Part shown: in pieces, positions 2,585 to 50,050 of the stretch
Position numbering within the stretch: position 1 is the first letter of the stretch
How the letters are laid out: each line of letters begins with the position of its first letter
From: a virus
DNA: 64,000 bases
Strand: one strand, 5' to 3'
IMG/VR virus record: IMGVR_UViG_3300048672_000475
Span: 16,857 to 80,856 of that record
Program-made: the position numbers and the translations under genes
The notes under the pieces: generated by a model
Seen by the model: the letters and a program-made list of their open reading frames with translations, nothing else
What the model was told of the DNA's origin: nothing
The model's database searches: none

Positions 2585-3102
2585 ACCCTACTCCAAATTT
2601 CGGCTCTGTGGCCTCCGGCCAGATAATCTATCCGCTCTAAATCCCATTGATTCAATCGCATCGCGTCGCGTGGGAAATAAGCCACCTCGTCTGAATCGCT
2701 GATGCTCAAAGGCGGGTCTTGCAAAACCACGGTACGGTAGATGGTATCCGCCAGGGGGATAGCTTCTCGATACAGCCGTTCCCCGCCGATAACAAAGACT
2801 TCCTCGTATCGGCCTACTAACTGTAGCCAGCGTAAGGCAGTTGGCAATGAATCAGTCCACAATACACCTAGCTCCAGTTCGTACGCGTAGTTCTCCACCC
2901 TAGACGGGCTAATCACGACGTTCAATCGCCCTGGAAGCGGTTTGCTACCAAACGATTCAAAAGTTTTTCGGCCCATGATGATCGGTTTGCCCATCGTAAG
3001 CTGCTTAAAGCGTTTTAGGTCTTCGGGTATATCCCAAGGAATCTTGCCGTTGATGCCGATGATCCCTTGCAGGCTGTGCGCAACGATAATTGAGATTTTC
3101 AT
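2569..3102 (-). CDS. folA: dihydrofolate reductase
   Basis: IGINGKIPW, DLKRFKQLT, IMGRKTFES, PLPGRLNVV, VIGG motifs. Confidence 0.95.
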   Translation of the reverse strand: MKISIIVAHSLQGIIGINGKIPWDIPEDLKRFKQLTMGKPIIMGRKTFESFGSKPLPGRLNVVISPSRVENYAYELELGVLWTDSLPTALRWLQLVGRYEEVFVIGGERLYREAIPLADTIYRTVVLQDPPLSISDSDEVAYFPRDAMRLNQWDLERIDYLAGGHRAEIWSRVCNDL

Positions 3103-5608: not shown

Positions 5609-6964
5609 CTATTTATGGTATCTGTAAGATTCTTTTCCTTCCGCTGCGAGGGGCAGACCTTCCGCCCAATCCGGCACTACGGACATCAATTCGCAAAGCC
5701 TTTTTACTGAATAAGTGGGGGCGTCTGGAACTTCTGTTACCAGCTCATCGTGTACCTTCAAAACGATGTCGTAGTTCTCTTTCGAGGCCAGTACTTCACC
5801 GTGCTTGAATACATCCCTAGCGCCCGCCTGGGTGCAATTTTCAGCGATTTTTCCAGCCCCTGTCATAATATCGCCCCATTGTTTACTGAACTGGTTTATG
5901 CCTCTGAACACCAGTTTTCCTGACTGCGTGCTGTCGTCTTCTTCAACGATATCGCCGTTTTCGTCGAAATCACCTTTCTTTTTGGTTTTTCCTATTCGCA
6001 TGCCAGGGTATGGGATTACTCTCCCGCTTGGTAAAACAATTAGAACCCATTTCCCCTTGCGGACCGCTTTGCATTTTCCAAACGGGAACGGCACGTTAGG
6101 CACCTCCACCGCGTATCTCATCGCTTGTTCAGCGTCTTTCCAAAACTTACAGATCGCTGGGTGCTCTTTACGCCATTGTCGTTTCAAGCAGTCTATCGCT
6201 ACGAAAACGTCTTTCGACATCCCAAAAGTTTTCTTTGGCTCGTAGAAATCTTCCCAAGAGCAAAATGAGTCGTCACTTTTTTCTGCTTTGTTTTCCGCCT
6301 CTTTGCGATCCATTCCGTCTAACCACTCGTAAAACTTCTCGGCTTCGCTTATAATCTCTGGATTGGCGTACGGAAGAACCGTATCCGGAAGCGTATTCAG
6401 GTCTATCTTATTTGCGAAAGCAAGAAACGCGCCAACTCCACCTTGGAACCCGAAAGCCAATTCCATCACCTTGCCTATGGACCTCTCCTTATCCCCTATA
6501 GCGTCAATGGACATACGGAAAGCCTTTGCGAAAGCTGCGACGTATAAATCCGGCCCCTCACGTTTCGGTTTCCCTTTACTATCAAATACCCGATTTCCGT
6601 TTTCATCCAGAATGAAAGTGTCGTATTTCTTAAAGGCTTCTAACTTCCATTTTTCGCCGGCCAACCAAGCTAAAAAACGGCCTTCGATGTTGGCTAAATC
6701 AGCCACAACCAATTTCTTCCCCTCTGGTGCGCAGATAGCGTATCGCAGGGCGCTGCTGCACAATTCCATCGTGTCGTACCCCAATAAATCTTGTACGCCA
6801 TTCTTTACAGCGTCAATTCCGGGTATAATGTCGGCTTCTTCAAGGGTTGGTCTTGGAAAATTCTGTGGCTGTACGATTCGCCCACAATTAGATACCACGA
6901 CCCCATTGGCAGTGAATCGGTGCCTAGGCCCCGCGTTTATAATGTCATAGACCTTGGCCCTCAT
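5609..6964 (-). CDS. polA: family A DNA polymerase, C-terminal half, preceded by a 26-aa C-intein
   Basis: ADLANIEGR (motif A), R..GKVMELAFGF (motif B), VHDELV (motif C); begins MRAKVYDIINAGPRHRFTANGVVVSN/C. Confidence 0.92.
   Translation of the reverse strand: MRAKVYDIINAGPRHRFTANGVVVSNCGRIVQPQNFPRPTLEEADIIPGIDAVKNGVQDLLGYDTMELCSSALRYAICAPEGKKLVVADLANIEGRFLAWLAGEKWKLEAFKKYDTFILDENGNRVFDSKGKPKREGPDLYVAAFAKAFRMSIDAIGDKERSIGKVMELAFGFQGGVGAFLAFANKIDLNTLPDTVLPYANPEIISEAEKFYEWLDGMDRKEAENKAEKSDDSFCSWEDFYEPKKTFGMSKDVFVAIDCLKRQWRKEHPAICKFWKDAEQAMRYAVEVPNVPFPFGKCKAVRKGKWVLIVLPSGRVIPYPGMRIGKTKKKGDFDENGDIVEEDDSTQSGKLVFRGINQFSKQWGDIMTGAGKIAENCTQAGARDVFKHGEVLASKENYDIVLKVHDELVTEVPDAPTYSVKRLCELMSVVPDWAEGLPLAAEGKESYRYHK
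6887..6964 (-). other. split intein C-fragment (IntC, 26 aa)
   Basis: Block F VYDI, block G FTANGVVVSN; +1 extein residue Cys at 6884-6886. Confidence 0.88.
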
Positions 6965-7899
6965 TTCTCTCTCCGCTTCATGCCTTTAGCGTCTATCGTC
7001 TTCATAAGAGATTCCTTTCTAGCGTCTATGTGGGCCCGATACCGAATAGGGTCTTTTCTAAGTTCTTCCCAAAACTTTTTCACACCCTTGCTGGCCGCAG
7101 CTTTTTGAACCTCTCTATCTATTTTTTTCCTAGCGTTCGCGATAAGTTCCGCGTTTTTAGCTTTTAGCTCTGGGTCGTTCGCCAACGTATTCTTTAGGGA
7201 CTCGCCTATCTTCTTGCCTATTTCTTTTATTTCCTCTTCGGATCTACCCGCCCAGATTTTAGTAGTGGCTCTAGCATGGGATAAGTGTATGCCTTTGTGC
7301 TTGGCTAGTAATCTTTCCTTCAGAGGTCTAGCTGCCAATTCATCTCGTTTAGCCTGCTTCGCCCCCGTTGTTGTGTTTACCTTCATAGCGCAGCGCAAAG
7401 CACGCATCGCTATTTTGTACGCTTCTCTGGGGTTTTCTTTTTGCCATTTCTGTCCTCTTTTTGGCAAATGGGCATGTGCCTCTGGGCCTCTAGCTTGTTG
7501 AGCATCGCAAAGTCTTTGAATGTACGCAGCTCTAGCTTCAGGGTCTTCATCTAAACTACTCCAAAACAACCTAGCGGCTTCACTTTGAGCTATTTTTCCT
7601 AAACCACCGGATACCACGTTATACAAGTTATCTAGTCCGTGTTGTGCGATATGCTTTCTTTCCGCCTCACTAGCAATGCCCCTATCCGGGCACTCTTCTA
7701 AGATTTCTACTGTGAAAGCGTCTGGGCCAAAATGCAGTATAGCCTTATAAAAAGGCTTATCCGCGTATTTAGGAATTAGCGCCCTTCTCTTGTGATACCC
7801 CCACCTTTCAGCTATCGGCATAGATGTAACGCCTATATACGCGATGTTATCGGGCGCCGTTATTTTATAAATTAAGTGTTTTTTGGTGTAGATTCCCAT
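6961..7899 (-). CDS. free-standing GIY-YIG homing endonuclease
   Basis: LIYKIT...YIGVT...R...H...E...YN N-terminal domain and a basic helical C-terminus; lies between the intein halves. Confidence 0.85.
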   Translation of the reverse strand: MGIYTKKHLIYKITAPDNIAYIGVTSMPIAERWGYHKRRALIPKYADKPFYKAILHFGPDAFTVEILEECPDRGIASEAERKHIAQHGLDNLYNVVSGGLGKIAQSEAARLFWSSLDEDPEARAAYIQRLCDAQQARGPEAHAHLPKRGQKWQKENPREAYKIAMRALRCAMKVNTTTGAKQAKRDELAARPLKERLLAKHKGIHLSHARATTKIWAGRSEEEIKEIGKKIGESLKNTLANDPELKAKNAELIANARKKIDREVQKAAASKGVKKFWEELRKDPIRYRAHIDARKESLMKTIDAKGMKRREK

Positions 7900-9143
7900 A
7901 ACTTTAAACTCCCCAGTTTAGCTTCAAATAGATGGCAAGATTTTCCACCTTCTAAATATACCACATGATCTGGGGTGGCGCAAATCCCGCCGTACTCAAC
8001 GACATCTTGTTCGCCTTTACATACTACGCCTTCGTGCGGCACCCATTCGATGCCGTCCCATACGCTATCCGAGATAAGCACGCTCTCTATCGGCTTCTCG
8101 ATGACCTCCCCCGCTGCCGTTTTTACAGCAATCAATGTTCCTTCTGCGAGGCAGTCCCTAGAGGTTCTGGACGCGCCGGCGTATTGGATAGTCCCCTTTA
8201 CGCGGTCTCCAGCGCAGATCGCTTTTTGAAATCGCTTGTATTTGGCGGTAGATGAAGTGCAAGTGGATAGCCTGACCTCCAGTAGTTCTCTAAGATTCTC
8301 TGGGAGTTCGTCGTCTTTAATCAGCTTTTCTAACGTAGCTTTTTGTAGGTTTGGAAGTTCTATTCCAAAAGCCGAAAACACGTACTTGAGAACGGCATCG
8401 CGCTGGGACGCGGCTTTAACCTCGTTTTCCGTTATTTCCTGGGTACGCGCCGCCAGATGCTTTTTCTCGATTTCTATTTCCCGAACGGAGGCATCAACAA
8501 ACTCCATGTCGACATACAGGCCTCGGTCGTTAATCTCCTGATCCAGAAACCACAACTCCAGCTCGTTCTCGCGCGGGTAGTTCCACTTTGGCAGCTTCTT
8601 GGTAATCTCGCGCATGGCTGCGGTATCGGTAATGGCGTACTCTTTATACCGCTCCCACTCTTCGGGGTGTGTAAAAGGGGTTTTCCATTCGATAGAACCG
8701 TCTTTTTTCTTTTGCGGCTTGCAGAACAGCATCATTAGCCGCTTGCCGTCTTTGATCTTCCGCGCATCTTCACGGATGTTCAAAACTTCGCCACACTTTT
8801 CTAGGCTTCCTGGCAAGGCATGCGAGAGTGCTTGTGCCATCGAGCAGCGAAAACGCCGAATAGGCATATCCAGCTTGAGGCAATGGCGTAGGATTAGCCG
8901 GTCGAACTGAGCATTATGGAACGTCCAAATATACGAAGGGTTGTGAAGGTATTCATGTAAATCCTCCGGCATCGGTTCACCAGAATGCTTATCCCAAAGC
9001 TTCACTTCACCGTCGCCAAGTGCGTAGCTGAACAATTGCAGGTGGGTACTGGGATCTTCTGCGTACCTGTAGCCGCCACACGTTTTGAGGTCAATGAGTG
9101 AGCCGGTTTCGGTATCACCCCAGCACATAGGAAAATCGGTCAT
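7872..9143 (-). CDS. polA: family A DNA polymerase, N-terminal half (3'-5' exonuclease and thumb), ending in an N-intein
   Basis: Exo I DTET, Exo II HNAQFD, Exo III YAITD, DQEINDRG, GASRTSRD then intein. Confidence 0.92.
   Translation of the reverse strand: MTDFPMCWGDTETGSLIDLKTCGGYRYAEDPSTHLQLFSYALGDGEVKLWDKHSGEPMPEDLHEYLHNPSYIWTFHNAQFDRLILRHCLKLDMPIRRFRCSMAQALSHALPGSLEKCGEVLNIREDARKIKDGKRLMMLFCKPQKKKDGSIEWKTPFTHPEEWERYKEYAITDTAAMREITKKLPKWNYPRENELELWFLDQEINDRGLYVDMEFVDASVREIEIEKKHLAARTQEITENEVKAASQRDAVLKYVFSAFGIELPNLQKATLEKLIKDDELPENLRELLEVRLSTCTSSTAKYKRFQKAICAGDRVKGTIQYAGASRTSRDCLAEGTLIAVKTAAGEVIEKPIESVLISDSVWDGIEWVPHEGVVCKGEQDVVEYGGICATPDHVVYLEGGKSCHLFEAKLGSLKLWESTPKNT
7875..8153 (-). 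other. split intein N-fragment (IntN, 93 aa)
   Basis: Block A CLAEGTLI, block B ATPDH. Confidence 0.88.
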
Positions 9144-9403: not shown

Positions 9404-9604
9404 TTACTCGTCACCGGACTGTAAGAACCACCGTGTGCCCGTTCCGCCGCATAGCGAACACGTTTGCTTTGTTCTATTGCGGCACAGATCGCCGAAACCT
9501 AACTCCGACCAACGCCATCCTCTGCCGGAGCAGGTCTTACATAGCTGCGGCACTCGTGCCGCTTCACCCGGCTCAATTATTTCTTCTACGTTATCTACTC
9601 GCAT
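9404..9604 (-). CDS. DnaJ-like zinc-finger protein
   Basis: Two CxxCxGxG repeats; AACTGGAG RBS. Confidence 0.65.
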   Translation of the reverse strand: MRVDNVEEIIEPGEAARVPQLCKTCSGRGWRWSELGFGDLCRNRTKQTCSLCGGTGTRWFLQSGDE

Positions 9605-9624
9605 TTCATTTCTCCAGTTAGTAT

Positions 9625-9744
9625 TGGTGCGCCTGCTGGGAATCGAACCCAGGTACTCGCCTGAAATAAGGAACCTATCCGCAATTTGCGGCTCCGAGTA
9701 GTTCTCTACTCACGTTTCGCGCTCTACCGTTGAGCTACAGGCGC
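9625..9744 (-). ncRNA. atypical tRNA-like RNA (120 nt) with intact acceptor, D and T arms and CCA; anticodon loop replaced by an insert
   Basis: GCGCCTG/CAGGCGC-A-CCA; TAGCTCAACGGTAGAGC; CTGGG-TTCGATT-CCCAG. Confidence 0.8.
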
Positions 9745-9747
9745 TAT

Positions 9748-9777
9748 AAAATACTCCCGACCCTAAAGCCGGGAGTA
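9748..9777 (-). terminator. hairpin/intrinsic terminator after ssb
   Basis: TACTCCCGGC-TTTAGG-GTCGGGAGTA-TTTT. Confidence 0.6.
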
Positions 9778-9786
9778 GCGTACCTA

Positions 9787-10347
9787 TTACAACAAATCGT
9801 CGTCGTCGAAATCCGATCCAAGATCGTCCAAGCCATCCGCAGTGGCTGGCGCCGCACCGCCGAAAGATTCTCCGTCTTTGACGAACTGGACGGTAACCAG
9901 TGTTGCTCGGATAGCGTTACCGTAGCTATTTGATTGCGCCCAGATTTCAACAATACCGTTAACCCAAGCCCCGGAATAGATTTTTCCATCTTTAGCCGAT
10001 AATGGGTTTCTGTTTCTGTCCACTACCATTGGTCGACCATCATCCTGATTACGTGTAGCCGTCAGCGCCCAATTACCGGCATAGCCGTTGTATGTACGGC
10101 GGTTACCGTCAATGAAGCAGCAGGCTTTTTTGTCGATGAGGATCTCAGGCAGCAATACGTCTGCCTTAGCGCCCCATTTAGCTTTCGCCACCTCTTTAAT
10201 CGCGGCATCGATTTCCGCTTTGCAAGGGTTGTCTGGCGCGATCAGAAACGTTGATCTGTACTGGAACGGGCCTTGGTTTTTGTACTGGGTAGCTTCAAAT
10301 ACGTCTGGAAATGCCAAACGCGCATTTTTGATAATGATTCTTGCCAT
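9787..10347 (-). CDS. ssDNA-binding protein (DUF2815/gp2.5-like)
   Basis: RLAFP, IYSGAWV, VQFVKDGESFG, acidic tail DFDDDDLL. Confidence 0.88.
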   Translation of the reverse strand: MARIIIKNARLAFPDVFEATQYKNQGPFQYRSTFLIAPDNPCKAEIDAAIKEVAKAKWGAKADVLLPEILIDKKACCFIDGNRRTYNGYAGNWALTATRNQDDGRPMVVDRNRNPLSAKDGKIYSGAWVNGIVEIWAQSNSYGNAIRATLVTVQFVKDGESFGGAAPATADGLDDLGSDFDDDDLL

Positions 10348-17933: not shown

Positions 17934-18986
17934 CTACGCCAGACATTGGCGTACCTCGTGGGCCGTTCCAGCCCCGGAAATTAGAGTGTTGATCGCTGCA
18001 TTTACGTCGCGATCATGATGCGTTCCACACGCCGAACACTCCCAATCCCTCACCGACAGTCCTGCTAATCCTGTAGGGCCTGTTAGGCTCCCGCAAGTTG
18101 AGCAAATCCTGGTGGAATTTTTGGAAGCAACCTCGACATATTGAGTACCGCCTGCACGGCTCTTGTACTCAAGCATTGACCGAAGTTGTGCGTGACCGCT
18201 TGAGGCCACGCTCTTCCCGAATTTCTTGGCAATCCCTTTGATATTATCTTTGGAAAAATAGATAACGGTATTTTCCTGTACCAAACGTAATGACAACTTA
18301 TGATTTCTGTCCTTGCGTTGGTTCCGAATGCGCTCATGCTGCCTTGCTACTAATTTCCTGTTAATGCCACGTTGCGCCTGAGCCAAGCGTTTTGCGGATT
18401 GATGCAATTCTTTTGGATGGTCAATCTTTTCGCCGTTTGAAGTCGTTAGCAAATCCTTGAAACCGGGATCAATGCCGATAACGCCCTCTGCCTTGCGCGC
18501 TATCGTCTTGCGCTCGGAATCAATAAACAGACACAAATACCAGCCGGATGCGCGCTTAACGATACGACCACATTTGATTTTGCCCACTGGAATATCTTGC
18601 TTATGGAACCGGACAGTTCCTATTCCAGGCAATTTGACATGATTGTTTTCCGGCGTACGGATAGGATCGGGAAACGGGATGCTGTTTAATTTGTTACGCA
18701 TTCCTTTTAACTTAGGTTTGCCGCCAATCTTTTTAAAACAACGCTTCCACGCTATATAGGCAGTTGCCAACATGCCTTGTACGGTATGGCTTGGAATACC
18801 GATTTTCTTGCCATGATCCGCCAACAGGTTTTGAAAACCATTCGGTGTGTAATAGATACCACCTTTTGAGTCATTCTCTATTTTACGGATAGCCCAATTC
18901 CAGACGCCCGTAAGCATAAATAACCATACGTCCAACAATGAAGACTGAACAACGTTGAGCCTAAGTTTTAATTGAGTCTGGATCAT
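17934..18986 (-). CDS. tnpB: TnpB RNA-guided nuclease
   Basis: IGIDPG (RuvC-I), CSTCG..CSACG zinc finger, DRDVNAAIN (RuvC-III). Confidence 0.93.
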   Translation of the reverse strand: MIQTQLKLRLNVVQSSLLDVWLFMLTGVWNWAIRKIENDSKGGIYYTPNGFQNLLADHGKKIGIPSHTVQGMLATAYIAWKRCFKKIGGKPKLKGMRNKLNSIPFPDPIRTPENNHVKLPGIGTVRFHKQDIPVGKIKCGRIVKRASGWYLCLFIDSERKTIARKAEGVIGIDPGFKDLLTTSNGEKIDHPKELHQSAKRLAQAQRGINRKLVARQHERIRNQRKDRNHKLSLRLVQENTVIYFSKDNIKGIAKKFGKSVASSGHAQLRSMLEYKSRAGGTQYVEVASKNSTRICSTCGSLTGPTGLAGLSVRDWECSACGTHHDRDVNAAINTLISGAGTAHEVRQCLA

Positions 18987-43940: not shown

Positions 43941-44657
43941 ATGGAAAGTAACATACCCGAGCAACTAAAACGGTACAAAAAAGACCCTCTCGATATCCTG
44001 GATGGGCGCGTATTGCCGCCCGCATACCCTAGAGACGTGAAGCTGAAAAAACTATCCCATATCGCAGGTACTATCAATAAAGGTCGACCGGCTAAGTATC
44101 CGTGCGCGGAGGCGCTTCAGTATGCGGTCGAGCTGTACATGGAGCGGTTCGATCAGACCATACCGAGGGACGAGGAGTGGCGTAAGCGGTATCCATCAAT
44201 CTACCCCACTATACCGGGGTTGGTGTACGCATTAGGCTTTGCGAGCAAAGACGAATTTAAGCGGCAAGCGCAACGTGACGAGGGGTTCAAATTCGTCGTC
44301 GAACAAGCGTTTACTCGTATCGAAGAATTCAAAAATGATTTGCTACTAAAAGGCGGTAACTCAACTACTGGCGCTATGCACGATCTTGTCAACCACCATG
44401 GGTGGACGACTAAAGTGGAGCAGAATACCACGCTAAACGCCGGCAGCGATTTAGCAGCCCTCGTCCAAGCATTACAGGGTAAAGTACTGCGCCCCGTACT
44501 ACCTATACAAGACAATGAAGAAATTGAAGACGCGGAATACGCGGAAACCGAGGCCAACGCTGAAGAGGTGGATGAGGTCTCTACTCAGGCTTTTCCGAAT
44601 TCGGAAGAGTATGCCGAAGACGGCGAAATAGAAGATAGTATGGAGGATTTATTATGA
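43941..44657 (+). CDS. terminase small subunit (gp3-like)
   Basis: GRPAKY, PTIPGL..ALGF, L.NHHGW; upstream of terL. Confidence 0.7.
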   Translation: MESNIPEQLKRYKKDPLDILDGRVLPPAYPRDVKLKKLSHIAGTINKGRPAKYPCAEALQYAVELYMERFDQTIPRDEEWRKRYPSIYPTIPGLVYALGFASKDEFKRQAQRDEGFKFVVEQAFTRIEEFKNDLLLKGGNSTTGAMHDLVNHHGWTTKVEQNTTLNAGSDLAALVQALQGKVLRPVLPIQDNEEIEDAEYAETEANAEEVDEVSTQAFPNSEEYAEDGEIEDSMEDLL

Positions 44658-44899
44658 CCGAACTGCATGACTTTGGGTGGGCTGTAGCACAATTAAAAGT
44701 AGGGCATAAGGTATGCCGAGCAGGGTGGAATGGTAAGGGTATGTGGCTTGAACTTATCAGCGCAGGGGACTACGAGGTAACCGCTATGGGGTTTAGTCTT
44801 CTTCCGTGGATTGGTATGAAAACAGCGGATGATAAATTTGTACCCTGGCTCGCGTCTCATACGGATGTACTAACCGAAGATTGGGCGTATAAGGCGTGA
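44654..44899 (+). CDS. DUF2829 / Tad2-like anti-defence signal sponge
   Basis: DFGWA...LK.G.KV.R.GWNGKGMW...PWLAS.TD.L.EDW. Confidence 0.75.
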   Translation: MTELHDFGWAVAQLKVGHKVCRAGWNGKGMWLELISAGDYEVTAMGFSLLPWIGMKTADDKFVPWLASHTDVLTEDWAYKA

Positions 44900-46892: not shown

Positions 46893-48431
46893 ATGAAAAG
46901 AGCGGTAACCGAAAAAACGGAGGCCCTTAAAGAAAAGTTACGTGGCGAGGGGAGAGTGATTTTCCTTAACCGAATGCAAGAGATGTACGGCGACAAGCTA
47001 GATCTTAGCTTGGTTCAATACGTGAATTCGCAGACCAAAGTAAAGGTACGATGTGTAGAGCACGACCATGTTTTTGAGGGTAAACCAAACAATTTAGGCA
47101 TGGGTAAGACAGGATGCCCTACTTGCACCACGGCTAAAAAGAAAGCGGCTAATCCGAATACGCTGTCTCAAGAAACTTTTCTTGCTAAGTGCAGAGAAGT
47201 ACACGGCGACAAATATGATTACTCAAAAACCGTATACGAATCCGCGCACAAAGAAGTCACAATAATCTGCCCGGAGCATGGCGAATTCACGCAGCTAGCT
47301 AGATCACACCACAAAGGGCAGGGGTGTAGGCGGTGCGCTCGCATAGCTATTACGAATAAGCAGTTGGGTAATTTAGAAGACTTTATCGCAATAGCAACAG
47401 AAGTTCATAAAGGCAAATACGACTATAGGCTAGCGGAGTACGCGGGAAATTTAACCGCTGTAAAAATACTCTGCAAGGACCACGGTATATTTGAGCAGAA
47501 TCCAAAAGACCATAAGCAAGGGAACGGATGTCCAAAATGCGGAGTTACAGGACCGTCTAAAGCTGAGGCCGAAATAGCGGAATATGTGAAGTCTTTAGTA
47601 GAAGGTGTACGGACCAGCGATAGGTCGGCCATAGCCCCGAATGAACTGGATATTTATGTACCGGATAAAAATTTGGCTATCGAATTCAATGGTGTTTACT
47701 ACCACTCCGAAAAATTCATATCCAAAGATTATCACCTAGAAAAACTAAAGAAATGCAATTCAGCAGGCATAGACCTGATACAAATATTTGAGGATGAGTG
47801 GGAGGATTTAGGAAAACGCGAAATCGTAAAATCCATGATTTCATCCAGATTAGGAGCTAACGGTACTCGTATTTATGCGAGAAATACCGCTTTAGAGGTA
47901 GTCCAGACTAAAGAAGCGCGGACGTTTCTTGACGCTAACCATATACAAGGATTTGCGGCCACAGGAACCTACTATGGCCTACGAACAAAAGACGGCGAAT
48001 TGGTATCCGTAATGGCGTTTTCTCCCCCAAGGCGGTCTATAACGCGGGCGAAAACGGAGTACGAGTTAGAGTTGGTTCGGTACGCACCCAAACTATTTAC
48101 CACTGTTGTAGGAGGGTTCTCCAAGTTACTTAGCCCGGTAAAAGGTAAGCGGATAGTGACGTATTGCGATAGGCGGCTATTTAACGGAAACGGATACAAA
48201 GCGGTAGGTTTCAGAGTGGTTAGGGAAAATCCACCTGAGTATTACTACCTACACCGAAAAACTCGAAATTTCAGGCATTCACGATTAGGGTTCCAACGAA
48301 AACACCTAGAGAAAAAACTTGAGAATTTTGATCCGGCCAAAACTGAACATCAAAACATGCTAGATCACGGATACCGCAGGATTTACGGATGCGGTACTAT
48401 AACGCTCGTACTGGACAAAGGTAATACATGA
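46893..48431 (+). CDS. Hef-like homing endonuclease with three zinc-ribbon repeats
   Basis: C..H..F......G.GC..C x3; ELDIY...AIEFNG.YYHS; IYARN...NHIQG...GGFSKL. Confidence 0.75.
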   Translation: MKRAVTEKTEALKEKLRGEGRVIFLNRMQEMYGDKLDLSLVQYVNSQTKVKVRCVEHDHVFEGKPNNLGMGKTGCPTCTTAKKKAANPNTLSQETFLAKCREVHGDKYDYSKTVYESAHKEVTIICPEHGEFTQLARSHHKGQGCRRCARIAITNKQLGNLEDFIAIATEVHKGKYDYRLAEYAGNLTAVKILCKDHGIFEQNPKDHKQGNGCPKCGVTGPSKAEAEIAEYVKSLVEGVRTSDRSAIAPNELDIYVPDKNLAIEFNGVYYHSEKFISKDYHLEKLKKCNSAGIDLIQIFEDEWEDLGKREIVKSMISSRLGANGTRIYARNTALEVVQTKEARTFLDANHIQGFAATGTYYGLRTKDGELVSVMAFSPPRRSITRAKTEYELELVRYAPKLFTTVVGGFSKLLSPVKGKRIVTYCDRRLFNGNGYKAVGFRVVRENPPEYYYLHRKTRNFRHSRLGFQRKHLEKKLENFDPAKTEHQNMLDHGYRRIYGCGTITLVLDKGNT

Positions 48432-50050
48432 CACAACAAAAAATCCACGCTAAAAAACCAAAATTAGCGTTCCCTCCGAAGAAAACTGATTTGGTAACGT
48501 TTGAGTTTACGGAAGAAGAACTTATCGCGGGGTTAGCCGACCCGCGATGGAGGCTATCGAATCTGTACACGATCTATAATAAAAAGAACCGGCCAATTAT
48601 ATTCAGGCCGAACGCAATCCAGAATACCATTCTCACAGATATGTGGTTTCGGAACGCCATTCTCAAAGCGAGGCAGGGCGGGGTGTCTACGTTTGTGCAG
48701 ATTTTTATGCTGGATACTTGCCTATTTTCAGAACAGCAGCGGGGTAAGGTAATCTGCTCTGATCTTAATCTAGCTGAAGGTATTTTACGTGACGTATTTA
48801 AACGCGCGTACGATAACTTACCAGCACCGTTCAAAATTGCGTTACCTACGTCTGGCGAACCCTCAAAGAGTAAAATTGAATTTACCAACGGCTCTATCGT
48901 AGAAGTAACTACCAGCGCCAGGGGGCAGACGCCTTCAATCGTACACATCAGCGAATATGGTAAGATCGCGGCCAAAGACCCTCAAAAGGCAAGAGAAATT
49001 CAAACGGGTACGCTAACTGCGGCGGCGGCGGACGCTCTAGTATTCGTGGAATCTACTGCAGAGGGAAATTCAGGCGCTTTTTACGATTTGGTGCAGACTG
49101 CGGTTAAGTTACAAGAATCAGGAAAACCCTTATGGAAGTTAGACTTTAAGTTGTTTTTCTTTCCTTGGTACATAGACCCCTCCTACGTAGCTCCGGCGGA
49201 TTGTGTAACTATATCACCAAAAGACCATGAGTATTTCGACACCGTAGAGCAACGATGTAAAACCAAAATATCGCCAGAGCAACGCGCATGGTACGTCAAA
49301 CTCAGAGAGATGAACTACGCAGGCGATAGGGAAATGATGGCCCAGGAGATGCCGAGTTTCTGGCAAGAGCCTTTCCAACAATCTTTGGAAGGTGCGTACT
49401 TCACCGAGCAGTTCACGCGAATCCGAAAAGAAAACAGAATAACGGAAGTGCCCTACGACCCGCATTATCCGGTTAACCTTTTCTTCGACCTCGGTGCGAA
49501 TGACGAAACCTCCATTTGGTTTATCCAGGCCAAGAGAGGACAGTTCGCGGTTATCGACTTCTTTGAAGACAACGGCGAACCTTTATCCTATTTCGTAAAC
49601 GAAATCGATTCCCGAGGGTATACATTAGGCTTCGTCTACCTACCGCACGACGCCAACCACCGAAAGCAGGGCCAAGACAGAAACTTAACACCCGAAGAAA
49701 TGCTACAAGAATTGTGCCCTCATTGGCGATTTCAATTAGTGCCCAGAACGCCGGATAAATTGACCGCGATCATGCAGGCTAGAAACTTCTTACCACTTTG
49801 CGTGTTTGATGAGGCTAAGTGCAAAGAAGGTCTGGCCCATCTGCAAAGCTACCGCAAAATGTGGGACCCAAGAAGAGGTATGTGGAAATCTACGCCTAAC
49901 CACGATATACACTCGAACGCGGCGGACGCCTTCCTACAAGCGGGACAGGCGAAAGCGATGAACATGTTCGGCTACGGGAATGCGGGCACTGCTATGCAGA
50001 ACACCTCGTTTGACGCCAGTTTCGTACCTGAACCCGATCTAGGATATTAA
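48428..50050 (+). CDS. terminase large subunit
   Basis: ILKARQGGVST, HISE, ESTAEG, FDLG..D, HD, SNAADAF. Confidence 0.92.
   Translation: MTQQKIHAKKPKLAFPPKKTDLVTFEFTEEELIAGLADPRWRLSNLYTIYNKKNRPIIFRPNAIQNTILTDMWFRNAILKARQGGVSTFVQIFMLDTCLFSEQQRGKVICSDLNLAEGILRDVFKRAYDNLPAPFKIALPTSGEPSKSKIEFTNGSIVEVTTSARGQTPSIVHISEYGKIAAKDPQKAREIQTGTLTAAAADALVFVESTAEGNSGAFYDLVQTAVKLQESGKPLWKLDFKLFFFPWYIDPSYVAPADCVTISPKDHEYFDTVEQRCKTKISPEQRAWYVKLREMNYAGDREMMAQEMPSFWQEPFQQSLEGAYFTEQFTRIRKENRITEVPYDPHYPVNLFFDLGANDETSIWFIQAKRGQFAVIDFFEDNGEPLSYFVNEIDSRGYTLGFVYLPHDANHRKQGQDRNLTPEEMLQELCPHWRFQLVPRTPDKLTAIMQARNFLPLCVFDEAKCKEGLAHLQSYRKMWDPRRGMWKSTPNHDIHSNAADAFLQAGQAKAMNMFGYGNAGTAMQNTSFDASFVPEPDLGY

What the first reader, a model, noticed from the sequence alone, without database searches (positions are those of the whole stretch)
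9625..9744. 120-nt tRNA-like RNA with the anticodon loop replaced by a two-hairpin insert
Seen (minus strand): a perfect 7-bp acceptor stem GCGCCTG/CAGGCGC with A73 and encoded CCA, canonical T8A9, D arm GCTC-AACGGTA-GAGC and T arm CTGGG-TTCGATT-CCCAG. Between the D and T arms are ~68 nt instead of ~23. The base of the anticodon stem (CG/CG, AAA/TTT) closes hairpins GAGTAG-AGAA-CTACTC and CCGCA-AAT-TGCGG. No 7-nt anticodon loop, BHB motif, group I intron core or tmRNA G3-U70 pair is visible. Intact outer arms with a structured insert argue against simple decay. Inference: a tRNA mimic (decoy for anticodon nucleases, synthetases, EF-Tu or RelA), a tRNA scaffold stabilising a functional insert, or an unknown spliced tRNA.
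Basis: partly seen in the sequence, partly recalled or inferred. Interest (0 to 1): 0.75.

Follow-up and report, generated by a model that had tools for sequence, protein, structure and literature searches.

The report
Orphan tRNA-shaped gene with handle insert
A freshwater phage carries a 120-base gene with a perfect tRNA frame and a 46-base two-hairpin insert inside the anticodon stem; the same insert design occurs in large phages that always also encode a Ro60-like RNA-binding protein, but this phage has no such gene, so it is probably a stray, non-decoding tRNA look-alike.

Summary
Window 9625-9744 (-) matches the Rfam tRNA model over its full length (48.4 bits), with perfect acceptor, D and T arms, A73 and an encoded CCA. 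It has 68 nt where a tRNA has about 23.

The insert does not replace the anticodon loop. Removing 46 nt (9717-9672) leaves a 74-nt cloverleaf with a perfect 5-bp anticodon stem but a 6-nt loop (UAUUUC). I therefore do not expect it to decode.

The insert's layout is a 7-bp hairpin, then 5 nt, then GCAA. This matches a recurrent family of phage tRNA bodies; the layout arises in 0.4% of shuffles. All 13 records holding family members encode a DUF2828/DUF7788 protein that looks Ro60-like. None of 11 records with unrelated inserts does. This phage record (88% complete) has no such gene.

The closest accessible relatives (SSB about 70% identical) lack the whole element. It is therefore an accessory insertion behind the SSB terminator.

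- **Best reading (0.5):** a stray, somewhat degenerate, non-decoding tRNA mimic of the Y-RNA kind.
- **Main rival (0.3):** an inert relic.
- **Little support:** a spliced tRNA-Arg(CCU), the ARAGORN call.

Expression is untested. This scan has already noted the DUF2828 and "handle" RNA pairing on other DNA.

The parts
9625..9744 (-). Whole 120-nt tRNA-shaped gene, including A73 (9628) and the encoded CCA (9627-9625)
   Evidence: Rfam tRNA at 48.4 bits, full length. Own model R1 scores 154.9 bits on itself. Family model R3 scores 63.3 bits.
9738..9744 (-). Acceptor stem, 5' strand (GCGCCUG). It pairs 7/7 with 9629-9635.
9721..9735 (-). D arm (GCUC-AACGGUA-GAGC)
9672..9717 (-). 46-nt insert (RNA positions 28-73) within the 5' strand of the anticodon stem
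   Evidence: Deleting it gives a perfect 5-bp stem and, by minimum free energy, a 74-nt cloverleaf. Family members carry 41-54-nt inserts at the same place.
9695..9712 (-). Hairpin A of the insert (7 bp including one U-G pair, loop AGAA)
   Evidence: It aligns with the covarying hairpin of the family.
9686..9689 (-). GCAA motif, 5 nt after hairpin A (context GCCGCAA). It lies in the 5' strand of hairpin B (9679-9691).
   Evidence: Hairpin plus GCAA at these spacings occurs in 0.38% of shuffles.
9658..9671 (-). Rest of the anticodon-like arm: CCU, the 6-nt loop UAUUUC, then AGGCG
   Evidence: The loop is not canonical: it has no U33/R37 register.
9636..9652 (-). T arm (CUGGG-UUCGAUU-CCCAG)
9752..9777 (-). 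Terminator-like hairpin after the SSB gene, ending 7 nt before G1 of the element. It is conserved in relatives L120 and L121.
9612..9623 (-). Conserved ribosome-binding box UACUAACUGGAG of the next gene, directly after the CCA
   Evidence: 20 matches in the window against 3.4 expected.
9787..10347 (-). Upstream neighbour: Gp2.5-like ssDNA-binding protein (DUF2815)
9404..9604 (-). Downstream neighbour: 66-aa protein with two CxxCxGxG zinc knuckles. It is absent from L120 and L121, and no homologue was found.

Best explanation
The element is a tRNA-derived gene that does not decode. It is an accessory insertion between the SSB gene's terminator hairpin and the next gene's ribosome-binding site, in a roughly 90-kb tailed bacteriophage.

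Its acceptor, D and T arms and its CCA are intact. If transcribed, by read-through from the SSB gene, it should be cut by RNase P and trimmed like a tRNA. This step is inferred.

A 46-nt module interrupts the 5' strand of the anticodon stem after nucleotide 28. The module is a hairpin, then about 5 nt, then GCAA within a second hairpin. What remains of the arm has a 6-nt loop.

The module has the layout of the 'handle' found in a family of phage tRNA bodies. In every record tested, that family co-occurs with a Ro60-like DUF2828/DUF7788 protein. By analogy with Y RNAs, which mimic tRNA and bind Ro60, the handle would be that protein's binding site. This is also inferred.

This phage has no such gene in the 88% of its genome on record. 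I therefore read the element as a stray, probably horizontally acquired and somewhat degenerate member of the family. At most it acts as a free tRNA mimic, or needs a partner supplied in trans.
For: **Shell**
- Rfam tRNA at 48.4 bits, the same score as T4 tRNA-Arg (48.8 bits).
- All 16 stem pairs are perfect, and U8, A14, G18 G19, U54 U55 C56 and A58 are present.

**Not a decoder**
- No canonical arm appears in any 17-nt stretch of the region or after any single deletion.

**Family layout**
- 12 other phage elements share the order: D arm, 0-5 nt of stem, A/U spacer, hairpin of 6-9 bp with compensatory changes, 4-6 nt, GCAA.
- Ours has a 7-bp stem, 4-nt loop and 5-nt spacer, identical to L014 and L112.
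- This signature occurs in 0.38% of shuffles.
- The family model, built without ours, aligns our hairpin and GCAA without indels at high posterior probability.
- One deletion of 46 nt gives the stem CGCCU/AGGCG and a cloverleaf at minimum free energy.
- Seven relatives regain canonical loops: Gln, Lys, Phe, Leu, Asn, Ile and Tyr.

**Partner protein in relatives**
- DUF2828 is present in 13 of 13 records holding family members and in 0 of 11 records holding unrelated inserts.
- The gene directly abuts arrays of the elements in L014, L030 and L045.
- Its nearest named ESM-Atlas clusters are TROVE plus vWA_Ro60, in 27 of 30 hits.

**Accessory status**
- L120 and L121 keep the exonuclease, SSB, hairpin, orf76 and PolA order but lack the element.
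- The eight relatives' records that could be searched (two more are not held) contain no such element.
Against: - No DUF2828 or TROVE gene in the 80.8-kb record (tblastn; the positive control worked). Ours would be the only family member without the partner.
- The family model gives ours 63.3 bits. Shells with unrelated inserts get 46-60 bits and a plain tRNA-Lys gets 56 bits, so the gain from the insert is small.
- No sequence homologue of the insert was found anywhere.
- Its handle is richer in G+C, its 5' spacer is 4 nt shorter, and it reads GCCGCAA rather than ACAGCAA or ACCGCAA.
- The 5-bp stem with a 6-nt loop arises in about 5% of shuffles.
- I noticed the GCAA motif with ours in view, so the 0.4% figure is partly post hoc.
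- A terminator-like hairpin lies 7 nt upstream and no promoter-like site lies between. Expression is unknown.
Confidence: 0.5

Rival explanations
1. An inert relic. Either a tRNA gene or a handle-bearing tRNA body was acquired from another phage and is no longer used, or a tRNA gene was hit by one recent insertion or replacement.
For: - No partner gene in the record.
- The 6-nt loop could be a one-base loss.
- The element is an orphan with no homologue.
- It is absent from relatives.
- The insert's fold energy is not exceptional.
- A single event would leave the shell intact.
Against: - The shell shows no defect in 16 stem pairs or in the conserved loop bases.
- Both insert hairpins are perfect.
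- Phage genomes usually lose unused DNA (general knowledge).
- The hairpin-plus-GCAA layout is unlikely by chance. This argues against a random insertion, though not against a dead family member.
Confidence: 0.3
2. A working tRNA whose insert is removed or tolerated. One version is the ARAGORN call, tRNA-Arg(CCU) with a 41-nt intron at position 31/32. The other is the 74-nt product with a 6-nt loop.
For: - ARAGORN in intron mode calls Arg(CCU).
- AGG makes up 15.5% of Arg codons and AUA 32% of Ile codons, and the phage has no other tRNA.
- 20 of 57 comparable shells regain a canonical arm after one deletion, against 0.9 expected by chance. Some such genes may therefore be real tRNAs.
Against: - The ARAGORN product has a 4-bp stem, U at position 37 and a 9-nt variable region.
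- ARAGORN forces an intron call, with arbitrary anticodons, in 69 of 86 comparable sequences.
- Bacterial tRNAs with the same 5' half are Lys(UUU) in 66 cases and Ile(UAU) in 28, and never Arg.
- There is no group I core.
- BHB-like arrangements occur at chance level, and none sits at the insert boundaries in 10 relatives.
- The record has no RtcB, RNA ligase or tRNA-intron endonuclease.
- A 6-nt loop lacks the U33 turn register.
Confidence: 0.08
3. A free-standing tRNA mimic or RNA-processing signal unrelated to the handle family. For example, it could be an RNase P punctuation site that sets the 3' end of the SSB message, with the resemblance to the handle being chance.
For: - A second, unrelated tRNA-like element lies directly after a Gp2.5-like SSB gene in L164 and L145. 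There it takes the place of the terminator hairpin that L161, L165 and L168 carry.
- L164-type phages have neither TROVE nor DUF2828.
Against: - Only two such cases were found among 160 SSB loci.
- A normal tRNA would serve equally well as a processing site.
- The model of the L164 insert does not hit our element.
Confidence: 0.12

Closest known systems
Bacterial and phage Y RNAs of the YrlA type with Ro60/Rsr (Chen et al. 2014, PMC4201824; Thermus phage phiLo Ro60 with Yrl1/Yrl2, PMC12135203)
   Same: - Small non-coding RNAs with D-arm and T-arm mimicry that are handled by tRNA enzymes.
- They are encoded beside a Ro60-type protein, also in phages.
- D. radiodurans Yrn1 is described with a 5-bp 'anticodon' stem and a 6-nt loop (PMC4201824), as ours has.
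- Family relatives of ours lie in arrays beside a protein that looks Ro60-like.
   Different: - In YrlA the 5' and 3' ends form the Ro-binding stem and the 'acceptor' is a closed hairpin. Here the ends form a true acceptor stem with CCA, and the protein-binding candidate is an insert in the anticodon stem.
- No Rfam family other than tRNA matches ours at E <= 1, or L014, L030 and L045 at E <= 0.01.
- The partner in relatives is DUF2828/DUF7788, not a Pfam TROVE protein, and it shows no sequence match to solved Ro60 structures.
- Our phage has neither protein.
Phage tRNA bodies with a hairpin-plus-GCAA 'handle', co-occurring with DUF2828. They are seen here in L002, L006, L014, L030, L045, L059, L062, L079, L095, L098, L099, L103 and L112. 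Earlier AI reports of this scan noted the pairing. I found no paper describing it.
   Same: - The insert sits at the same place, in the 5' strand of the anticodon stem.
- It is the same size (41-54 nt; ours 46 nt).
- It has the same order and spacing of hairpin and GCAA.
   Different: - Ours stands alone rather than in an array or a tRNA cluster.
- It lies in a roughly 90-kb phage with no other tRNA and no DUF2828 gene.
- Its handle is richer in G+C and its loop has 6 nt.
Phage T4 stable RNAs, species 1 (rnaC) and species 2 (rnaD)
   Same: They are phage-encoded stable RNAs of 119-139 nt next to tRNA genes. rnaC ends in a T arm plus an acceptor-like helix. Their roles are unknown (PMC3014915).
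   Different: rnaC scores only 17.5 bits against a tRNA-type model and has no D arm of the tRNA kind. There is no sequence or insert similarity to ours.
Archaeal tRNA introns at non-canonical positions (PMC4090602, PMC3241643)
   Same: Short inserts inside tRNA stems, including the anticodon stem.
   Different: - Those introns need a bulge-helix-bulge motif and the archaeal splicing endonuclease.
- Here BHB-like arrangements are at chance level and absent from the boundaries of 10 relatives.
- No endonuclease gene is present.
- The phage has bacterial hallmarks: an NAD-dependent ligase and GGAG ribosome-binding sites.

Membership tests
Canonical decoding tRNA | 7-bp acceptor stem, D arm, T arm with the UUCRA loop, and a discriminator base | tested here: met
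   (48.4 bits; gathering score 29).
Canonical decoding tRNA | 5-bp anticodon stem with a 7-nt loop carrying U33 and a purine at 37 | tested here: not met
   No 17-nt stretch of the region and no single deletion gives this arm. The best parse has a 6-nt loop, UAUUUC.
tRNA with group I intron | A group I catalytic core within the insert, usually 200 nt or more | tested here: not met
   The insert is 46 nt. Rfam at E <= 1 finds only tRNA.
tRNA with archaeal or eukaryal-type intron | Bulge-helix-bulge motif at the splice sites, and a splicing endonuclease available | tested here: not met
   11 relaxed BHB arrangements against 13.2 +/- 5 in shuffles. None at the boundaries in 10 relatives. No PF01974 gene.
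tmRNA | tRNA-Ala-like domain with G3-U70, no D stem, and a tag reading frame | tested here: not met
   ARAGORN tmRNA mode finds none. The third acceptor pair is G3-C70.
Y RNA / YrlA | Match to a curated Y-RNA model | tested here: not met
   No Rfam 15 family other than tRNA matches at E <= 1.
Y RNA / YrlA | Encoded next to a Ro60 (TROVE) gene | tested here: not met
   No TROVE match in the record. The neighbours are an SSB and a zinc-knuckle ORF.
Y RNA / YrlA | 5' and 3' ends form the Ro-binding stem, with the motif GNCGAAN0-1G near the 5' end (PMC4201824) | tested here: not met
   The ends form a tRNA acceptor stem. GCGAAACG after the D arm resembles the motif but does not fit it.
Handle-tagged tRNA bodies (hairpin plus GCAA; DUF2828-associated) | Insert of 41-54 nt within or at the 5' strand of the anticodon stem of a tRNA shell | tested here: met
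   46 nt after stem nucleotide 2. Relatives carry it after nucleotides 0-5.
Handle-tagged tRNA bodies (hairpin plus GCAA; DUF2828-associated) | Hairpin of 6-9 bp, then 4-6 nt, then GCAA, at a fixed distance from the D arm | tested here: met
   7 bp, loop 4, spacer 5. Frequency in shuffles 0.38%. Model R3 aligns it without indels.
Handle-tagged tRNA bodies (hairpin plus GCAA; DUF2828-associated) | Family covariance model scores it clearly above shells with unrelated inserts | tested here: inconclusive
   63.3 bits, against 46-60 for unrelated inserts, 56 for a plain tRNA-Lys, and 68-94 for untrained family members.
Handle-tagged tRNA bodies (hairpin plus GCAA; DUF2828-associated) | Same record encodes a DUF2828/DUF7788 (PHROG 850) protein | tested here: not met
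   0 hits in 80.8 kb at 88% completeness. Present in 13 of 13 family records and 0 of 11 controls.

The most novel reading that the evidence does not exclude
The hairpin-plus-GCAA module is the binding handle of an undescribed branch of Ro60/Y-RNA particles, in which whole tRNA bodies are displayed on a DUF2828 ring. Under this reading, the solitary copy in a small phage that lacks the protein is kept because it works in trans. It would either use a host or co-infecting phage's ring protein or titrate it, as an RNA decoy in phage-phage or phage-host conflict over tRNAs.
Probability: 0.15. Interest if true: 0.75.

Novelty: new variant of a known kind. Interest (0 to 1): 0.5.

Why it matters
**If the family reading holds**
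- The element would show that the tRNA-body-plus-handle design spreads beyond the jumbo phages that encode the Ro60-like protein.
- It would be a natural test of whether the RNA can act without a protein encoded beside it.

- Many phage 'long tRNAs' are tRNA frames with a conserved module in the 5' strand of the anticodon stem.
- Of 57 comparable shells, 20 regain a canonical arm after one deletion.
- All 13 handle-bearing records encode DUF2828.
- This bears on how phage tRNA genes are annotated, since default ARAGORN misses them and intron mode mislabels them. It also bears on the biology of Ro60-type particles.

**If it is a relic,** it is of minor interest.

Tried and rejected
**Searches for relatives of the element**
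The contigs of the closest SSB relatives (P0001 at 93%, P0002-P0005 at 81-86%) could not be read.
- Exact and degenerate pattern scans for the insert in viral contigs gave 0 hits.
- blastn of the element against cultured phages gave only generic tRNA-arm hits.
- blastn of the SSB region against cultured phages gave no match.
- The single-sequence model R1 found only shell-level hits of 51 bits or less.
- The zinc-knuckle neighbour has no homologue.
- The exonuclease query found no close relatives in viral contigs.

**Identity and origin of the insert**
- Homology of our insert to the L164-type core was rejected. The local alignment has p = 0.04, and model R2 does not hit the element at E <= 10.
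- An Arg identity for the shell was rejected. Of 113 bacterial tRNAs with the same 5' half, none is Arg.
- The hexamer CUACUC, shared between hairpin A and the upstream terminator, occurs at the expected frequency.
- The insert has no other copy in the genome.

**Genes in the phage record**
- No reverse transcriptase, CCA-adding enzyme, RtcB, RNA ligase or tRNA-intron endonuclease.

**Sequencing runs**
- No RNA holder was listed. Only two DNA runs were listed, one of them the probable source.
- Laying their contigs showed no contig across the element and no joints. This says nothing about expression.

**Other**
- The DUF2828 protein has no sequence match to solved Ro60 structures.
- I did not run a fold prediction of it.

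Full report
**1. What is there**

On the minus strand, window 9744-9625 reads as a tRNA frame.
- It has a 7-bp acceptor stem, U8 A9, a 4-bp D stem with loop AACGGUA, and a 5-bp T stem with loop UUCGAUU.
- It has A73 and an encoded CCA.
- The Rfam tRNA model matches it end to end at 48.4 bits (E 2.8e-7 for the window). The model places 58 nt where it has 13 positions.
- T4 tRNA-Arg scores 48.8 bits in the same kind of scan.
- It is the only tRNA-model hit in the whole 80,856-base IMG/VR record, which is rated 88% complete.
- Default ARAGORN finds no tRNA or tmRNA.
- No other Rfam family matches at E <= 1, apart from a spurious opposite-strand hit.

**2. Context**

The record is a tailed bacteriophage. 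It encodes a large terminase, a portal, an NAD-dependent DNA ligase, thymidylate synthase and a DNA methylase.

The element lies in the replication module, on the minus strand, in this order:
1. PD-(D/E)XK exonuclease
2. Gp2.5-like SSB
3. Terminator-like hairpin at 9777-9752, followed by UUUUAU
4. The element
5. A conserved ribosome-binding box
6. A 66-aa zinc-knuckle ORF
7. orf76
8. A split family-A DNA polymerase

No sigma-70-like promoter lies between the terminator and the element.

**3. Relatives of the phage**

The SSB has a graded series of homologues, up to 93% identical.

With an SSB alignment I fetched 160 loci.
- The 20 closest have no tRNA-model hit within 3 kb.
- L120 and L121 (SSB 71% and 69% identical) keep the same gene order and the same terminator hairpin. 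They have other small ORFs and no tRNA-like gene. In L121 a 28-nt stretch sits where ours has the 120-nt element.
- Ten relatives' whole records were asked for; two are not held, so eight were searched. One has two ordinary tRNAs (Gly, Pro), and none has a long tRNA-like gene.

The element, and probably the zinc-knuckle ORF beside it, is therefore an accessory insertion.

**4. Is there an anticodon arm?**

- No 17-nt stretch of the 67-nt region, and no single contiguous deletion, gives a 5-bp stem with a 7-nt loop carrying U33 and R37.
- ARAGORN in intron mode calls tRNA-Arg(CCU) with a 41-nt intron. The product has a 4-bp stem, U37 and a 9-nt variable region.
- The same program calls an 'intron tRNA' in 69 of 86 comparable phage sequences, with arbitrary anticodons. 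The call therefore carries little weight.
- Bacterial tRNAs with the same 5' half are Lys(UUU) in 66 cases, Ile(UAU) in 28 and Gly(UCC) in 8, and never Arg. The best overall match is a Vicinamibacteria tRNA-Lys(UUU).
- Allowing a 6-nt loop, deletion of RNA positions 28-73 (46 nt) gives the stem CGCCU/AGGCG with loop UAUUUC. The 74-nt product folds by minimum free energy into a cloverleaf. Such a stem arises in about 5% of shuffles.
- BHB-like arrangements are at chance level.

**5. A wider class**

A pattern for this D arm and T loop, with 50-80 nt between them, hit at least 118 viral contigs. This yielded 57 distinct shells with perfect acceptor stems.
- They are heterogeneous. Some are plain tRNAs with a 37/38 intron, for example L034 and a giant-virus tRNA-Tyr.
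- 20 of the 57 regain a canonical arm after one deletion of 24-54 nt, against 0.9 expected by chance. The deletion most often lies within the 5' strand of the anticodon stem.
- ARAGORN's insert positions cluster at 30-33.

**6. The family that ours resembles**

Twelve elements share one layout. They are L002, L006, L014, L030, L045, L062, L079, L095, L098, L099, L103 and L112. Further copies lie in arrays in L014, L030 and L059. The layout runs:
1. D arm
2. 0-5 nt of the anticodon stem
3. An A/U-rich spacer
4. A hairpin of 6-9 bp whose sequence differs in every member, with compensatory changes
5. 4-6 nt
6. GCAA
7. A U-rich stretch or second hairpin
8. The rest of the anticodon arm

How ours compares:
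- Ours has a 7-bp stem, 4-nt loop, 5-nt spacer and GCAA. These are the same values as L014 and L112, with a 5' spacer 4 nt shorter.
- The signature occurs in 0.38% of shuffles of our region.
- A covariance model built from the 12, without ours, aligns our hairpin and GCAA without indels.
- The score gain is small, however: 63.3 bits, against 46-60 for unrelated-insert shells.
- Seven members regain canonical loops (Gln, Lys, Phe, Leu, Asn, Ile, Tyr). Three others and ours do not.
- None of 10 members has a BHB at the boundaries.

**7. A protein partner in the family, missing here**

- In L014, L030 and L045 the arrays directly abut a protein of about 500 aa with DUF2828 and DUF7788 domains. 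It falls in PHROG 850, 'RNA-binding protein'.
- With those two families left out, 27 of its 30 nearest named ESM-Atlas clusters are TROVE plus vWA_Ro60. This is a lead, not proof.
- phmmer finds no solved Ro60 structure.
- DUF2828 is present in all 13 records that hold family members: 12 above the curated cut-off and one truncated at a contig end.
- It is present in none of 11 records that hold unrelated inserts.
- By my arithmetic the exact probability is 1/C(24,13), about 4e-7.
- Our record has no DUF2828 or TROVE match.
- The arrangement recalls Ro60 with adjacent Y RNAs that mimic tRNA (PMC4201824, PMC12135203). The topology differs, and no curated Y-RNA model matches.
- Earlier AI reports of this scan describe the same DUF2828 and 'handle' RNA pairing on other DNA. 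I reached the link and tested part of it here.

**8. Reading**

*Shown*
- It is a real tRNA-derived gene.
- It is an accessory insertion.
- It has no canonical anticodon arm.
- Its insert has the layout of the handle family.
- The family's partner gene is absent from the record.

*Inferred*
- It is processed like a tRNA.
- The handle binds the DUF2828 protein.
- This copy is a stray, non-decoding mimic (0.5) or a relic (0.3).

*Not tested*
- Expression. No RNA run was listed.

**9. Limits**

- The closest relatives could not be read.
- I noticed the GCAA motif with ours in view.
- The family sample comes from a single D-arm pattern, capped at 118 loci.

Noticed in passing
window 5609-9143 (-): The family-A DNA polymerase is split into two ORFs with a GIY-YIG endonuclease gene (6961-7899) between them. 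The first ORF (7872-9143) ends in an N-intein-like stretch beginning CLAEGT. The second (5609-6964) begins with a stretch ending VVSNC. Relative L121 has one intact 755-aa polymerase reading RDSGKIVQPQNF across the junction. This looks like a split-intein 'fractured' gene.
   Followed up: partly
L164:3638-3738, L407, L405:1998-2094, L406:6185-6281, L145 (partial): A second family. An invariant core of about 30 nt (AAGUCCGAGACGCGAAAGCGGRGUAGGCA) sits in tRNA shells with unrelated acceptor stems in three unrelated phages, and the closing stems covary. L164 and L145 carry it directly after a Gp2.5-like SSB gene, in place of the terminator found in L161, L165 and L168. GUCCGA equals 6 of the 7 bases of the Ro60-contacted GGUCCGA quoted in PMC4201824. 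The two complete genomes have no TROVE or DUF2828 hit.
   Followed up: partly
L008:11620-11741, L050, L063, L072, L094: A third family of tRNA shells of about 122 nt, with three hairpins in place of the anticodon arm. Compensatory changes occur in the first hairpin (L063) and in the acceptor stem (L050).
   Followed up: partly
57 shells from loci L002-L119: 20 of 57 phage 'long tRNAs' regain a canonical anticodon arm after one deletion of 24-54 nt, against 0.9 expected by chance. The deletion usually lies inside the 5' strand of the anticodon stem, and no BHB is present. How such tRNAs are matured or tolerated is open.
   Followed up: partly
window 44654-44899 (+): An 81-aa Tad2-like ORF (Thoeris anti-defence 2; Pfam PF11195, E 5e-22). 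L002 has a Tad2-like ORF directly after its handle-bearing tRNA body.
   Followed up: no
window 17934-18986 (-): A 350-aa ORF matching PHROG 506 'transposase' (E 9e-69) inside the phage genome. No guide RNA was looked for.
   Followed up: no
window 9752-9777 (-); L120:2628-2660 and 3010-3040; L121:2068-2095: The hairpin CUACUCCCGG...CGGGAGUA, followed by UAUUU and the box AACUGGAG, is kept almost unchanged between phages whose SSB genes are only about 70% identical. It occurs twice in L120. It may be a regulatory or processing cassette between genes.
   Followed up: partly
L280:59-163 (-): A 169-kb phage has a 105-nt tRNA with anticodon loop CUCUAAA (anticodon CUA, an amber suppressor) and a variable region of about 30 nt. 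Its acceptor stem is the same as ours.
   Followed up: no
window 46893-48431 (+): A 512-aa HNH homing-endonuclease-like ORF lies directly upstream of, and overlaps the start of, the large terminase gene (48428-50050).
   Followed up: no
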